DNA of 59,282 bases, counting the filler, from Parachlamydiales bacterium (lineage in GTDB: Bacteria > Chlamydiota > Chlamydiia > Chlamydiales > Parachlamydiaceae), in the NCBI GenBank assembly GCA_020051075.1. It is 5 parts of 5 records of this genome, joined end to end, with 100 filler letters (N's around TTAATTAATTAA, not from the genome) between each part and the next. Parts side by side here need not be neighbours in the genome. Positions count along the whole stretch, not along the records: positions 23,371 to 39,571 come from JAGVJP010000009.1; 4 more parts are not named here. The stretch is one strand, 5' to 3'. Below, piece after piece: positions 27,001 to 33,000 of this stretch. Position numbers: made by a program. The stretch's first letter is position 1. The number at the start of each line of letters is the position of its first letter.

Positions 27001-30000
27001 GATTGCTTCGAAAAATTCGTTGATTTGATGGTTTGTCCTTCAATGTTCACTTCATTCATCACAATCTCCTCTTTGTTATTAGTATAGCAAATGGTACCGT
27101 TTAGATCTAATTGCCATTTCTGGTATACTTCTTTTCAATTTGGGAGCATTCAATGGAGCAGACCGCAATCATGAAAAATAGAAGGATTCAAAAAGCGCAC
27201 ACCGCTGAACAAATTCGATCATGCTTTAAAATCATGCGACAACTCCGTCCTCATTTGACAGAAGAAGATGCTTTTGTGGAGCAGGTTCAACGTCAATTAG
27301 CGGAAGGATACCATTTAGCATACTCACAGGATGGTGATGAAGTCAGAGCCCTTGCAGGATTCAGATTTCTTGAGTTCTTAGCCTGGGGAAAGGTGCTCTA
27401 CATCGACGATTTAATTACCGATTCCAGCATGCGGAGAAGCGGCCACGGAGGTATGTTGTTAAAATGGGTGGTCGATCAGGCCAAAGAGGCGAGATGTGAT
27501 CAGGTTCATTTAGATAGCGGTCCTCAGCGGCACGATGCTCATAGACTGTATCTAAACCATGGCTTTAAGATCATCGGTCATCATTTTGCATTGAATTTCA
27601 AAGAGTAGATATCTCAAAACGGAAGCGTTTTAAGTTATTCACTTTCAAAGAGATAAACTTTTCGTTGATAAATTAGACAAACTCCAATACCATCAGCCCC
27701 ATTGTTAGTGACTCAATCTAGAAAATAGAATGAGTCTTAAAAGGGAACCTGGTGTGAATCCAGGACTACCCCACGTAGCGGTATGCAGAAACGAATTTTG
27801 CCAATGAGCACTGGTGCTGAAAAAGCCACTGGGAAGCGGCAAATAGTAGGAATCCTTAGGGAATGTCTGCGAGTCCGAAGACCTGCTAATGATAAACACA
27901 TGGCTATTGCCTTCGAGGGGAAGGAAATGGACGTTCATTATATGCATCATTGCATTTTTGCAATATGCTTGTCTGAGCTCTTTTCTGTAACCGTTCATGT
28001 TGGTGTAGGCACTTCCCAAATGGGTTTGAATGGTTATTTGCTTCAGAAATCGGCTCATGAATAGTAAAAAACTATAAATTTCGTCGATTTCTCCGCTTCT
28101 CATCCATTCAAACATCGTTTTGGAAGGCTTGCACCCCCGTGAACCGTTACCTTTTTCCGAATGCTTTTGCCTTTTTTTTGACAGCGTTTTTGAATACGCT
28201 GGAAGAGTCAATGATTTATTATTCGAGGAAAAAGCATGACACAAGTTCAAGAGATAATTTCAGTCAAAATTCGCAAAAGAAATGGTTCCATCGTCGATTT
28301 CGATGAGAACAGAATCTTTCGCGCTATCGCAGCCGCTTTCTGTACTAAAGAATGGGGAATGCCAAAAGATCATGTTCTCGACCTTTCCCAAAAGGAAACC
28401 GTCGATAAGATTTTTGAGGAAGTCATTGAGAAAATCGCGGATGGGGCTAGAAAAAGCGATCCGATCGATGTCGAATGGATTCAAGATATTGTTGAATTAA
28501 TTTTGATGCGCCAAGGTTTTTATGCGGTTGCTAAAGATTACATCCTCTATAGGCAAAATCGGGCAAAAGCAAGAGAATTAAATCACGAGGGTGACGGAGA
28601 GCTGACTCAGGTTAAGATGGAGAATGGTCAATTTTCTCCCTTTTATCGCTCGCGGCTAAAGAAAATACTTGAAGAAGTCGCGAGGGATCTCCTTCCTCAC
28701 ATAGACTTAAATGCGTTAATTAAGGCCATTGAAGGGCAATTGTTCAATGGAATGACTAAAGAGGAAATCTTAGACGTCGCTATTTTAACTTCCAGAAGTT
28801 TCATTGAAATAGAGCCTTCTTACGATAGCCTGACAGCACGCCTTCTTCTAACAAAACTCGATCATGAAATATTTAACCGAAAAGTCCCCTTTTTGAAAAG
28901 AGGGGAAGAGATGAAATCGGCATTTAAAAGGCTGATTTCACAATGTATTGAAGCTGGGAGAGTAGATGCCAAACTTGGGGAATTTAACTTAGAAAAACTT
29001 GCGGAGGCTCTAGAATCTTCTCGAGACCTTTCTTTTAGTTATCTAGGCCTTCAAACGCTTTATGACCGCTATCTTTTGCATATTGAAGGCAGACATATGG
29101 AATCGCCGCAGACATTTTGGATGCGTGTGGCAATGGGCGTGGCTCTGAATGAAAGCGATAAAGAGGAAAAGGCGATAGAGTTTTACACGATTCTATCTAC
29201 TTTTCGTTATATCCCTGGGACGCCTACGTTATTTAATAGCGGCACATGCAAACCTCAGCTCTCTAGTTGCTATCTTCTTACTGTAGAAGATGACTTGGAG
29301 TCTATCTTCAAAATGATCTCTGATGATGCTAAGCTCTCAAAATGGGCTGGAGGGCTTGGTAACGACTGGACGAATATCAGGGCAACTAACGCGAGAATTC
29401 ATGGAACAAATGGAACATCACAAGGTGTGATACCGTTCTTAAAGATTGCCAACGATACAGCATTGGCAGTAAATCAAGGGGGGAAACGCAGGGGAGCCAT
29501 GTGCGCCTATCTTGAAATCTGGCATTTAGATATTGAAGACTTCTTGGATCTTCGCAAGAACACTGGCGATGAGAGAAGGCGCGCTCATGATATGAATACC
29601 GCAGTTTGGATTCCCGATCTATTGATGAAAAGGATTGAAGAGGATGGAGAGTGGACCCTCTTCAATCCATCAGATGTTCCTGATCTCCATGATCTTTATG
29701 GGAAAAAATTCGATGAGCAGTACCTTCATTACGAACTGCAAACGAAGCAAGGGCAAATCACACTTTTTAAGCGTCTTTCGGCAGTGGAATTATGGCGAAA
29801 GATCCTCTCCAGGCTTTTTGAAACGGGACATCCTTGGATCACATGGAAAGATCCTTCCAATATACGCTCAGCACAGCAACACTGTGGAGTCATTCACAGC
29901 TCAAATCTCTGCACAGAAATCCTTCTCAATACAAGCAGCAAGGAAACAGCAGTCTGTAATCTGGGGTCGGTAAACATCAAAGAGCATATTAAAGAGGGAA

Positions 30001-33000
30001 AAATCGATGACATCAAGCTTGGAGAAACGATCGGTATCGCGATGCGGATGCTCGATAATGTGATCGATATTAATTACTACCCCACCCCTGAAGCGAAGAG
30101 AGCTAATACGTTACACCGTCCGATTGGACTGGGATTAATGGGTTTCCAAGACGCCCTTCATCTGTTGGATATTCCTTACGCTTCAGAAGAGGCGATAGCT
30201 TTTTCCGACAGATCTATGGAACAAATCAGCTATTACGCGATTGCAGCTTCGGCGATGTTAGCCAAAGAAAGGGGAGCTTATGCCTCGTATTCAGGCTCGC
30301 TATGGGATCAGGGATTGTTTCCCATAGATACAGTCGACCTTTTAGAGAAAGAGAGAGGGAGAATTCTTGAAGTCGATCGCAGTGCTGCAATGGACTGGAA
30401 GCCTCTAAGAGCTTTGGTAAAACAATATGGGATGCGCAATAGCCAAGTCATGGCCATTGCACCAACAGCGACGATCAGTCAAATTATTAATGTGTCGCAG
30501 TCCATAGAACCTCTTTATGGTGTTCTTTATGTCCAAAGCAACCTGTCAGGAGAGTTTACTTATGTTAACGAGCGACTGGTTCAAGAATTGAAAGCATTAG
30601 GCCTTTGGGATCAAGATATGCTTAATGAACTCAAATACGAAGACGGATCCATCCAAGGAATTGATCGCATTCCTGTCAGAGTACGCGAGAAATACAAGAC
30701 AGCATTTGAAATAGGCGTCGACTGGTTAATTCGCTGTGCTGCGAGACGGCAGAAGTGGATTGACATGGGACAATCGCTCAATCTGTACCTTGGTGATCCA
30801 TCAGGAAAAAAATTAGATGAAATGTATCAGCTTGCATGGCGATGCGGTCTCAAAACGACTTATTATTTGAGAACGCGAGCTGCAACACAGGTTGAGAAGT
30901 CAACGCTTGATATAAACCGCTTTGGGATACAACCAAAATGGATGAAAAATAAAAGTGCGTCAAGCAGCATCGAATTAAATCGCTCTGCTTGTTCATTGGA
31001 GAATCCCTCATGCGATGCCTGTCAATAAAGGAGTAGAAAATGAATCAAAGACGAATGAACAAAGATGAAAAACGGTTAATTAACTGCCATGAAGTCGATG
31101 TCAACCAATTAATGCCATTAAAATATAAATGGGCTTGGGAGCATTATATCAATGGCTGTATGAACCACTGGATGCCTTCGGAAGTAGCTATGCAAAAAGA
31201 TATCGAAATCTGGCGCTCTTCGATATTAACAGAGGCAGAACGACTTCTTATCAAGCGCAACCTGGGTTTTTTCGCTACTGCAGAAAGTCTAGTTGCAAAC
31301 AACCTTGTTCTTGCAATTTTTAAGTACGTCACAAATGCTGAATGCAGACAATATCTCCTGCGGCAAGCTTTTGAAGAGGCCATCCATACGCATACGTTCT
31401 TACATATCGTTGAGAGCTTAGGCCTTGATGAGAAGGAAATTTTTAACATGTATCGGGAGATCCCAGCGATTCAAGCCAAGGATGAGTTCGAAATAAAATT
31501 TACAGAATCTCTGGTCTTTGGGAAGATCGATACAACAACGTTAGAGGGAAAACAAGAATTTTTGCGCAACCTTATCGGTTATTACATCATCATGGAGGGA
31601 ATATTTTTTTATAGCGGATTTGCGATGATCCTCTCTTTTCAACGGAGAAATCTGATACCAGGGATTGCTGAGCAATTTCAATATATCCTTAAAGATGAAT
31701 CCATTCATCTGAATTTTGGTATCGACCTCATTAATGGTATTAAAGCAGAAAATCCTGAAATATGGACGGGAGAGTTCAAAAATGAAATGATCTCGTTGAT
31801 CCATCAAGCTGTAAAATTGGAAATCGCTTATGCGAACGACTGCCTCCCTATGGGCATCATCGGATTAAATGCCTCTCTTTTTACTGATTATGTCCAACAT
31901 ATTGCAGATAGACGTCTCGAAAGGATCGGCCTGCCAAAGCAATATGGATCGCTTAATCCGTTTCAGTGGATGAGCGAGTTGATAGATTTGCCAAAAGCGA
32001 AGAACTTCTTCGAAACAACCGTTCAAGAATATCAAAAAGCTGGGGCCTTAAACTGGGAGGAATTATGAGTATCTGTTCGGATAAATGGATTATAGAAAAG
32101 TGTCGTCAAGAGAAGATGATTGAGCCTTTTGTGGACAGTCAAGTGCGTTCTGATAACGGCAAAAAAATCATTTCGTATGGGGTCTCTTCATATGGTTACG
32201 ATATTCGCGTTTCTAACAAATTCGAGATATTCACCAACGTTTATGGTTCGATTGTCGATCCTAAGCACTTTGATATGAAAAGCCTTGTTCAGATAGAAGA
32301 TGACTTTTGCATTATCCCTCCAAACAGCTTTGTTTTGGCCATGACGATGGAGTATTTCCGCATCCCTGAGAATGTTCTCACCATCTGTGTGGGGAAGTCA
32401 ACCTATGCTCGATGCGGAATCATCGTCAACGTCACCCCTTTTGAACCTGGTTGGGAAGGCTATGCTGTCCTGGAGATTTCAAATACAACACCGCTCCCTG
32501 CCAAGATATATGCTGGAGAGGGAATTGCTCAAGTGCTCTTTTTTGAAGGCAAGGAAAGATGTTTGCAATCCTATGCTGATAGAAACGGTAAATATCAAAA
32601 ACAGAGCACGATGACTTTGCCGTTGTTGTGAAACTGTTACACGAGCTCATCCAAGTCAAGATAACAGGATAGGCAAAAGGGACAGAACAGGATAGGCAGG
32701 ATCGCAAGCGGTAGGATAAGCAAGATAGTGATGATAAAATAAAGATCGGTTTTTTTATCTTATTTATTCTGTCTATCCTGCCGCTTGCGATCCTGCCTAT
32801 CCTGTTCTGTCCCTTTTGCCTATCCTGTCTCTGCATTTCATTGTCCAAAATCTGATGGGATTTCGATTGCTAAATTATTGACTAGATTTTAGTTTAGTGC
32901 TGAAGAATCAAGATTAACAAAAGGTTGTAAAGATGGTCGTTAAGGTGGATCTCGCTCAGTTGGCTAATCAAATTATGCAAGAAAAAGGGTTGCAACCTGA

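What a model noticed while it worked through the whole genome (the two positions that open the first line are those of the whole stretch)
27689..32068. Cobalamin riboswitch before the class Ia reductase operon nrdAB, with a B12-dependent class II reductase and an adenosyl [...]
A cobalamin riboswitch (C120 4319-4534) lies 330 nt upstream of nrdA-nrdB (g02342-43, 4866-8698). The genome also has a monomeric adenosylcobalamin-dependent ribonucleoside-triphosphate reductase (g00993, C64 1552-3585) and a PduO-type corrinoid adenosyltransferase (g01962, C99 14840-15442), but no cobalamin synthesis genes. This is the logic known from Streptomyces: with B12 (here from the host) the class I enzyme is turned down and the class II enzyme works. 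It adds a B12 input to RNR control in chlamydiae beside NrdR (g00472).
Evidence so far: rna.tsv: Cobalamin 95.6 bits, E 2e-24; ncbifam.tsv names for g00993, g01962. Riboswitch in 37 of 73 Parachlamydiaceae genomes; in 10 of 12 loci fetched it stands before an nrdB-like gene (28-40% to g02343; call 71). No B12-binding or Cob/Cbi synthesis family outside the foreign C107. Two literature searches found no report for chlamydiae.
(Added by a program. Inside this text positions count along the whole contig: they may not be those of the stretch shown here. "Call 12" and the like, gene names such as g00115 and contig names such as C1 are that model's own, and its searches are not shown. The text may have been shortened before it was handed on; [...] marks where a part breaks off. 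The agent that wrote the report below was given it as the finding of a first reader that could run no searches.)

Follow-up and report, generated by a model that had tools for sequence, protein, structure and literature searches.

The report
B12 switch on chlamydial ribonucleotide reductase
An environmental chlamydia has a vitamin-B12-sensing RNA switch that most likely turns down its B12-independent enzyme for making DNA building blocks when scavenged B12 lets a second, B12-dependent enzyme work; this logic is known from other bacteria, but relatives reveal a wider B12 economy in these intracellular bacteria.

Summary
The aptamer is real (RF00174, 27689-27904, 95.6 bits). The operon is class Ic (Mn/Fe type: Glu82, Phe120), not Ia, and includes dcd. 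The expression platform can be modelled. Hairpin P13 (27910-27924) pairs with L5, with compensatory changes across relatives. Strand 28151-28163 swaps between P13 and the nrdA ribosome site, so translational OFF is likeliest. A 164-bp repeat sits inside the leader.

NrdJ, PduO and NrdR are confirmed, and QueG is a second B12 enzyme. NrdR boxes lie before nrdJ, not nrdAB. In 151 phylum genomes all 17 with the riboswitch have NrdJ. In the family, 24 of 30 genomes with both reductase classes carry it directly before class I. Across the phylum it precedes three different class I types.

The logic is known (Streptomyces). This scan found class Ic plus riboswitch before, on other DNA, and I found it in 9 non-chlamydial loci. 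No report for chlamydiae turned up in ten searches. Two leads: 16 further aptamers precede an undescribed membrane ClpB-like ATPase, and 13 of 40 high-quality family genomes show only the B12-dependent reductase. Regulation is untested.

The parts
27665..27693 (+). Candidate sigma-70-type promoter (TTGATA-17-TACCAT); would start transcription just before P1
   Evidence: 9 of 12 matches; not above chance by itself (6 sites found, 12.3 expected); only its position fits
27689..27904 (+). Cobalamin riboswitch aptamer, long form with the peripheral extension
   Evidence: RF00174 95.6 bits, E 1.4e-22, model 1-189; single copy in genome
27766..27778 (+). P5/L5 hairpin, loop CCCCACG (27769-27775), aptamer half of the kissing loop
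27910..27924 (+). P13/L13 hairpin, loop CGAGGGG (27914-27920), regulatory half of the kissing loop; 6 of 7 Watson-Crick pairs with L5
   Evidence: cognate loops pair better than permuted ones (4.33 vs 3.35 pairs, 0 of 20000 permutations; 20 distinct pairs, kin not independent)
27783..28064 (+).
   Evidence: no NCBIfam or Pfam match; matching frame broken by stops in the 3 related leaders read correctly; its last 78 nt are the inserted repeat
27987..28150 (.). 164-bp palindromic MITE-like repeat inserted in the leader; terminal inverted repeats; folds as one hairpin (-71 kcal/mol)
   Evidence: 10 further copies over 100 nt at 82-88% identity; 8-bp flanking direct repeats at the C63, C123 and C93 copies, imperfect here
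28151..28163 (+). Switching strand / anti-Shine-Dalgarno (CUUUUUCCGAAUG): pairs with 27910-27923 (ON) or with 28220-28234 (OFF)
   Evidence: constrained folding
28225..28234 (+). Ribosome-binding region of nrdA (GAGGAAAAAG)
   Evidence: sequence; opening cost 5.1 kcal/mol free vs 7.4 with P13 locked
28236..31028 (+). nrdA, class I alpha subunit, 930 aa, one ATP cone matched
31040..32068 (+). nrdB, class Ic-type beta subunit, 342 aa (E82, E113, H116, F120, E186, E220, H223, Y331)
   Evidence: best PDB hits 1syy/4d8f E 1e-158
32065..32631 (+). dcd, dCTP deaminase, overlapping the nrdB stop; single copy in genome; probably co-regulated
   Evidence: also follows the operon in G095, G204, G182

Best explanation
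This is a repressing cobalamin riboswitch at the head of an nrdA-nrdB-dcd operon that encodes the B12-independent, oxygen-dependent class Ic reductase. The cell appears not to make B12; it scavenges a corrinoid and adenosylates it with PduO. When adenosylcobalamin is present, the aptamer binds it and L5 pairs with L13, holding P13 shut. Strand 28151-28163 is then free to pair with the nrdA ribosome site and translation stops, while NrdJ, expressed under NrdR control, makes the dNTPs. Without B12, P13 melts into a helix with that strand and NrdAB is made. Shown here: aptamer, loop complementarity and covariation, class Ic residues, gene content, co-occurrence, NrdR-box placement. Modelled: the two folds. 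Inferred: ligand binding, OFF direction, translational mode (about 0.6 given a working switch), host origin of B12.
For: Aptamer 95.6 bits. L5/L13 complementarity across 40 aptamers, 20 distinct pairs: 4.33 pairs vs 3.35 +/- 0.19 permuted (0 of 20000); within the majority type 4.22 vs 3.81 (64 of 20000). In the phylum sample all 17 riboswitch genomes are among the 23 NrdJ genomes, so 0 of 128 NrdJ-negative genomes have it. PduO is over cut-off in 24 of 150, including all 23; QueG is in 16 of 151, all NrdJ-positive. In the family, 24 of 30 genomes with both classes have the aptamer directly before class I, against 1 of 12 with class I only. It precedes three different class I types. Locking P13 raises the cost of opening the ribosome site in G000 (5.1 to 7.4), G064 (4.8 to 13.3) and G095 (5.2 to 6.9). 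Each ribosome site pairs better with its own leader than with others (-9.5 vs -8.4 kcal/mol, 324 of 20000; 16 leaders). No terminator-like site in the leader. Tandem NrdR boxes at 16 of 21 nrdJ promoters, 3 of 29 riboswitch-class I loci, 13 of 2000 background windows. Precedent in Streptomyces as cited in PMC4991794 and PMC12528414.
Against: No binding or expression data. In G000 the ribosome site is predicted mostly paired in both states (unpaired probability 0.28 vs 0.30), and a 164-bp repeat splits the platform. Two of five leaders of this type show no shift (G044 0.8 vs 0.7, start codon uncertain; G204 2.6 vs 2.7). Locking P13 changed nothing in the 12 majority-type leaders parsed. Six of 30 dual-class family genomes lack the riboswitch, and two riboswitch genomes lack NrdJ (G176 63% complete, G184 8% contaminated). 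No BtuF-type or TonB-receptor importer was found. Genomes are related, so counts overstate independence. Several relatives have NrdJ with stops or in pieces.
Confidence: 0.8

Rival explanations
1. The switch works and represses, but by ending transcription (Rho-dependent, or at the U8 tract 28172-28179) rather than by hiding the ribosome site. This is an alternative mode within the best explanation.
For: U-rich tracts occur in the G000 and G064 leaders; the Streptomyces system is described as controlling transcription (PMC4991794); the ribosome-site model does not discriminate in most leaders.
Against: No terminator-like hairpin in the leader; the fold before the U8 tract is weak and borrows its 5' arm from the repeat; clean anti-SD helices in G064, G000, G110.
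Confidence: 0.25
2. This particular copy is impaired: the inserted repeat uncoupled aptamer and ribosome site, so nrdAB is expressed at a low, nearly B12-independent level.
For: Repeat insertion at 27987-28150, apparently into the pyrimidine tract; ribosome site mostly paired in both modelled states; the closest relatives have 174-213-nt leaders against 359 here.
Against: The repeat folds on itself (-71 kcal/mol) and leaves the switching strand intact; the modelled shift keeps its sign; aptamer and kissing loop show no decay.
Confidence: 0.13
3. The aptamer does not control nrdAB: it belongs to a small overlapping gene, acts in trans, or turns the operon ON.
For: A 93-aa ORF overlaps it; activating corrinoid riboswitches exist (title seen in a reference list).
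Against: The ORF has no family match and is not conserved; the aptamer stays directly before class I in 25 family loci; an ON switch for a B12-independent enzyme would not explain restriction to NrdJ genomes.
Confidence: 0.04

Closest known systems
Streptomyces coelicolor nrdABS B12 riboswitch (Borovok 2006; paper not held; seen only as cited in PMC4991794 and PMC12528414)
   Same: Cobalamin riboswitch before a B12-independent class I reductase in a genome with NrdJ.
   Different: Target here is class Ic plus dcd, not Ia plus nrdS. The mode looks translational. S. coelicolor has NrdR boxes at both nrdAB and nrdRJ (PMC13584703), whereas here they are only at nrdJ. The partner is monomeric NrdJ. 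The host is an intracellular scavenger.
Chlamydia trachomatis class Ic R2 (PDB 1SYY, 4D8F; organism and the F127Y label of 2ANI are recalled, not printed by the call)
   Same: All metal ligands, Phe in place of the radical Tyr, and the C-terminal Tyr align.
   Different: Best non-chlamydial relatives are Planctomycetota at 70-75% identity. C. trachomatis nrdAB is NrdR-controlled (Case 2011, title seen), and no riboswitch or NrdJ was found in the 27 sampled genomes of family f4.
Cobalamin riboswitch before class Ic nrdAB in free-living bacteria
   Same: 9 of 9 nhmmer candidates among 80 related loci were confirmed by Rfam outside chlamydiae (Planctomycetota, Verrucomicrobiota, Hydrogenedentota, Chloroflexota); earlier scan notes report the same pairing.
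   Different: Here the organism is a chlamydia, has no CobS, BtuF or TonB receptor, and relatives use the same aptamer for three class I types and a membrane ATPase.
Lactobacillus leichmannii monomeric RTPR / NrdJm (PDB 1L1L)
   Same: TIGR02505 823 bits; C-terminal cysteine pair and conserved motifs align. NrdJm is already listed for five environmental chlamydiae in the supplement of PMC6459318.
   Different: Distant in sequence (E 2.6e-34); no activity data for the chlamydial enzyme were found.
ClpB NBD1 plus middle domain (PDB 4HSE), for the second regulon target
   Same: Foldseek E 2.3e-12, TM-score 0.64 on target length.
   Different: One AAA module only, preceded by a helical domain and 1-3 predicted hydrophobic segments; 341 clusters at 50% identity; no specific Pfam family for the N-terminal part.

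Membership tests
Cobalamin riboswitch (RF00174) | Covariance-model match above gathering score over the full model | tested here: met
   95.6 vs 31.5 bits, positions 1-189
Cobalamin riboswitch (RF00174) | L5-L13 kissing loop (as described in PMC9600662) | tested here: met
   6 of 7 Watson-Crick pairs; covariation across 20 distinct pairs
Cobalamin riboswitch (RF00174) | Expression platform coupled to P13 | tested here: inconclusive
   Switching strand modelled; shift 2.3 kcal/mol in G000, present in 3 of 5 leaders of this type; none in unpaired probability for G000
Cobalamin riboswitch (RF00174) | Binds a corrinoid and changes gene expression | not testable with these tools
   Needs probing or a reporter
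Class Ia RNR beta subunit | Asp first ligand and radical tyrosine | tested here: not met
   Glu82 and Phe120
Class Ic RNR beta subunit | Glu first ligand, Phe at the radical-Tyr position, full ligand set, C-terminal Tyr | tested here: met
   Aligned to 1syy/4d8f; 2ani differs by Tyr at this site; Tyr-to-Phe criterion in PMC3019208 and PMC4009431
Class Ic RNR beta subunit | Mn(IV)/Fe(III) cofactor | not testable with these tools
   Inferred from sequence only
Monomeric class II RNR (NrdJm) | TIGR02505 above cut-off, intact frame | tested here: met
   823.5 vs 340 bits; 677 aa, no stops
Streptomyces-type B12 cross-regulation of RNRs | Riboswitch before class I and class II present in the same genome | tested here: met
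   24 of 30 dual-class family genomes
Streptomyces-type B12 cross-regulation of RNRs | NrdR boxes at the class I operon as well | tested here: not met
   Best pair 6 of 12 key positions at this operon, 11 of 12 at nrdJ; key positions from PMC13584703
Streptomyces-type B12 cross-regulation of RNRs | Repression of class I by B12 in vivo | not testable with these tools
   Needs experiment
Canonical Btu corrinoid uptake | BtuB (TonB receptor) and BtuF-type binding protein | tested here: not met
   PF00593 and PF01497 not found; two partial PF01032 hits on C24 not followed up; ECF and BtuM types not tested

The most novel reading that the evidence does not exclude
Many environmental chlamydiae run a B12 economy that has gone unnoticed. 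They switch among interchangeable class I reductases under one riboswitch, about a third of good Parachlamydiaceae genomes depend on scavenged B12 for DNA synthesis because NrdJ is their only reductase, and the membrane-anchored ClpB-like AAA+ ATPase that follows 16 other aptamers is a new kind of corrinoid-acquisition machine, for instance one that imports B12 or pulls it off host carrier proteins.
Probability: 0.25. Interest if true: 0.85.

Novelty: new member of a known kind. Interest (0 to 1): 0.55.

Why it matters
A 2009 survey found no cobalt/B12 users among 7 Chlamydiae genomes (PMC2667541), and a 2023 ancestral reconstruction names only class III and class Ic reductases in its main text (PMC9816063). 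A conserved B12 riboswitch, nested with NrdJ, PduO and QueG, says that environmental chlamydiae sense and use B12. That makes host or prey B12 a testable limit on their replication, most sharply for the NrdJ-only genomes. It splits control cleanly (NrdR on nrdJ, B12 on class I) and hands over a concrete unknown: how these cells import B12 without Btu proteins, with two candidate genes. The regulatory principle itself is not new.

Tried and rejected
Class Ia assignment: rejected. Intrinsic terminator in the leader: none by scan, weak by folding. First kissing-loop test chose P13 by its fit to L5, so it was circular and its statistic was discarded; redone blind, where 40 of 48 aptamer loci parsed (4 gave no L5, 4 no P13). 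Unpaired-probability switch model: clear only for G064, 1 of 16 leaders parsed; G044 moved the other way. Riboswitch remnants before the AAA gene of G000, G055, G095 and before nrdA of G023, G122, G145, G001: none (the G145 contig starts at nrdA, so it is uninformative). AdoCbl-II family in this genome: nothing above cut-off. Riboswitch before the two DUF6580 genes of this genome: no Rfam match. DUF6580 as the general importer: only 4 of 151 genomes. Class III reductase in the family: 0 of 73. RNA data: no RNA holder listed, so no reads were laid. ESM Atlas gave only generic AAA/Clp clusters. The idea that AAA-linked aptamers are orphans left after class I loss was considered and found unlikely: 7 genomes carry both aptamers. 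Borovok 2006 could not be read. Only one small supplementary file of PMC9816063 was held, so its Supplementary Data 9 could list class II reductases unseen.
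Full report
Observation. Rfam finds one RNA family in the window, Cobalamin RF00174 at 27689-27904 (+), 95.6 bits against a cut-off of 31.5; it is the only copy in the genome. It ends 331 nt before nrdA (28236-31028, 930 aa), followed by nrdB (31040-32068) and dcd (32065-32631, overlapping the nrdB stop, single copy). Monomeric NrdJ (TIGR02505, 823.5 bits) and PduO (TIGR00636, 181.3 bits) are as stated, and so is NrdR. CobS, methylmalonyl-CoA mutase, a BtuF-type protein and a TonB receptor were not found. 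QueG, a cobalamin enzyme by established knowledge (also named as such in PMC8123684), is present at 235.7 bits. The genome is 99.9% complete and 5.7% contaminated; the nrdAB contig shares two repeat families with many other contigs.

Enzyme class. NrdB's best solved relatives are 1syy and 4d8f (E 1e-158). It has Glu82 as first ligand and Phe120 at the radical-tyrosine position; 2ani differs from 1syy by a Tyr at exactly this site. The remaining ligands and Tyr331 align. By the criterion given in PMC3019208 and PMC4009431 (passages) this is class Ic, not Ia. That 1syy is C. trachomatis R2 and 2ani its F127Y mutant is recalled. The metal content is inferred.

Expression platform. An alignment of 18 leaders shows a conserved hairpin beyond the Rfam match. 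Here it is P13 (27910-27924), whose loop CGAGGGG makes 6 of 7 Watson-Crick pairs with L5 CCCCACG. With P13 chosen without reference to L5, 40 of 48 aptamer loci gave both loops and 20 distinct pairs. Cognate pairs average 4.33 base pairs against 3.35 +/- 0.19 when permuted (0 of 20000); within the majority aptamer type the figures are 4.22 against 3.81 (64 of 20000). Related genomes inflate these figures. An earlier version was circular and is not used. No terminator-like site lies in the leader. Constrained folding makes strand 28151-28163 pair with P13 when the ribosome site is open, and with 28220-28234 when P13 is locked. The cost of opening the site rises from 5.1 to 7.4 kcal/mol here, 4.8 to 13.3 in G064 and 5.2 to 6.9 in G095, with no change in G044 or G204. 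Against this, the site is mostly paired in both states here (0.28 vs 0.30), and locking P13 changed nothing in the 12 majority-type leaders parsed. Across 16 leaders each ribosome site pairs somewhat better with its own leader (324 of 20000 permutations). A 164-bp palindromic repeat (27987-28150; 10 other copies at 82-88% identity) is inserted in the leader and folds on itself. The overlapping 93-aa ORF has no family match and is not conserved.

NrdR. A recalled consensus finds one tandem box pair in the whole genome, at C64:1478 before nrdJ, with 31-bp spacing. Scored on the six key positions given in PMC13584703 (passages), pairs of at least 10 of 12 occur at 16 of 21 nrdJ upstream regions, 3 of 29 riboswitch-class I loci (900-nt windows; none in a convincing place) and 13 of 2000 random 500-nt windows; this operon scores 6 of 12. 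So NrdR probably governs nrdJ and B12 governs class I. None of 8 riboswitch-less class I loci had a pair in the stretch read either, so NrdR control of class I seems rare in this group generally.

Distribution. In 151 phylum genomes the riboswitch is in 17 and NrdJ in 23; all 17 have NrdJ. PduO is above cut-off in 24 of 150 scored, including all 23. QueG is in 16 of 151, all NrdJ-positive. Of the 23, 17 also have a class I beta subunit and 14 of these have the riboswitch, 13 directly before the operon and one at a contig end. In the family (73 genomes) the counts are riboswitch 36 above cut-off, NrdJ 58, class I 42, class III 0. Of 30 genomes with both classes, 24 have the aptamer, in each case directly before class I by coordinates; of 12 with class I only, one does (G184, 8% contaminated). 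The regulated operon is class Ic with nrdA first, a eukaryote-like class Ia with Asp and Tyr and nrdB first (30% identical), or a third type with Glu and Leu (40% identical; sequence read in 3 of 6 genomes). Keeping the aptamer across enzyme replacement argues for selection on the regulation. Thirteen of 40 high-quality family genomes have NrdJ but no class I or III match, one of them in a single contig and one with NrdJ in pieces; absence in draft genomes is not proven.

Second target. Of the 43 family aptamers above cut-off, 25 precede class I, 16 precede one family of membrane-anchored, single-module ClpB-like AAA+ proteins (21-54% identical to the G112 protein; followed by ferrochelatase in 10), and 2 are unclear. 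The model matches ClpB NBD1. Seven genomes have both aptamers, so these are not simply orphans. The family's N-terminal/membrane part is found in 16 of 23 NrdJ-positive and 4 of 127 NrdJ-negative genomes, though the profile was built largely from riboswitch-adjacent members. This genome has the gene (C17) without an aptamer. One genome has a short AdoCbl riboswitch (RF01482, 56.2 bits) before DUF6580; DUF6580 is in 4 of 151 genomes, twice in this one. A role in B12 uptake is inference from the usual targets of such riboswitches.

Comparison with what is known. B12 repression of class I is established for Streptomyces nrdABS and noted for B. halodurans (passages of PMC12528414 and PMC4991794; the primary paper was not held). 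Class Ic behind this riboswitch is not special to chlamydiae: among the 80 closest NrdB loci, mostly Planctomycetota at 67-75%, 9 non-chlamydial ones carry it (many loci lack enough upstream DNA, and only 14 were run through Rfam). Earlier scan notes say the same. NrdJm is already listed for five environmental chlamydiae in a supplement of PMC6459318 (rows seen), without mention in its main text. PMC2667541 reported no cobalt users among 7 Chlamydiae (passages). PMC9816063 names class III and Ic only (passages; its main supplements were not held). PMC8242063 and PMC9666466 contain none of the terms B12, cobalamin, ribonucleotide or riboswitch, and PMC4989314 none of B12, riboswitch, nrdJ or ribonucleotide reductase. 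PMC9600662 and PMC9531940 were read as passages only. Ten full-text searches listed no report of a cobalamin riboswitch in chlamydiae; the library lacks most subscription papers, and regulon databases were not available.

Verdict. A real and probably working riboswitch, a new member of a known regulatory kind, with the enzyme class and the NrdR link corrected. Interest 0.55: the principle is old, but a B12 regulon in intracellular chlamydiae, likely B12-dependent lineages and an unexplained membrane ATPase target are concrete and testable.

Noticed in passing
L064:2316-4295 (-) (G000 C17) and L022-L026, L103-L105, L107-L109, L111-L115: Membrane-anchored single-module ClpB-like AAA+ family, often before ferrochelatase, follows 16 cobalamin aptamers in relatives; 341 clusters in the representative library; candidate B12-acquisition protein.
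   Followed up: partly
G075, G078, G110, G127, G153, G154, G159, G162, G168, G170, G190, G195, G196: High-quality family genomes with NrdJ but no class I or class III reductase match.
   Followed up: partly
L117:900-2051, L118:4486-5637, L119:4381-5607: Third class I beta type under the riboswitch, with Glu as first ligand and Leu at the radical-Tyr position, nrdB before nrdA.
   Followed up: partly
L123:2393-2989, L124:2398-2895; L110:4797-5463: Two DUF6580 membrane proteins in this genome; in G196 one follows a short AdoCbl riboswitch. The C80 copy has a few riboswitch-like words upstream with no Rfam score.
   Followed up: partly
L001:1478-1524 (G000 C64): Tandem NrdR boxes before nrdJ, the only such pair in the genome.
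   Followed up: yes
L231:1848-2777 (-) (G000 C74): QueG, found in 16 of 151 phylum genomes, all with NrdJ and PduO.
   Followed up: yes
window 26181-26300 and 23371-23460: A second, abundant palindromic repeat of about 120 nt, with hits on 68 of 133 contigs and often at contig ends; may cause the assembly breaks.
   Followed up: partly
window 24573-25348 (-): Two short ORFs (102 and 154 aa) that look like pieces of one aminotransferase gene behind a PAS-HTH regulator (25329-25946); judged by eye, not scanned.
   Followed up: no
window 26487-27062 (-), 27153-27608 (+), 32933-34390 (+), 34769-38865 (+): Neighbours: pentapeptide-repeat protein, GNAT acetyltransferase, RNase II-family nuclease, then what looks like an ArsR / ABC / ACR3 cluster (by eye).
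   Followed up: no
G101, G199, G201, G194, G190, G158, G166, G159, G185, G200, G186, G156: NrdJ matches with internal stops or in pieces; decay or sequencing error was not resolved. The six dual-class genomes without the riboswitch have the most divergent NrdJ (62-75%).
   Followed up: no
   Followed up: partly
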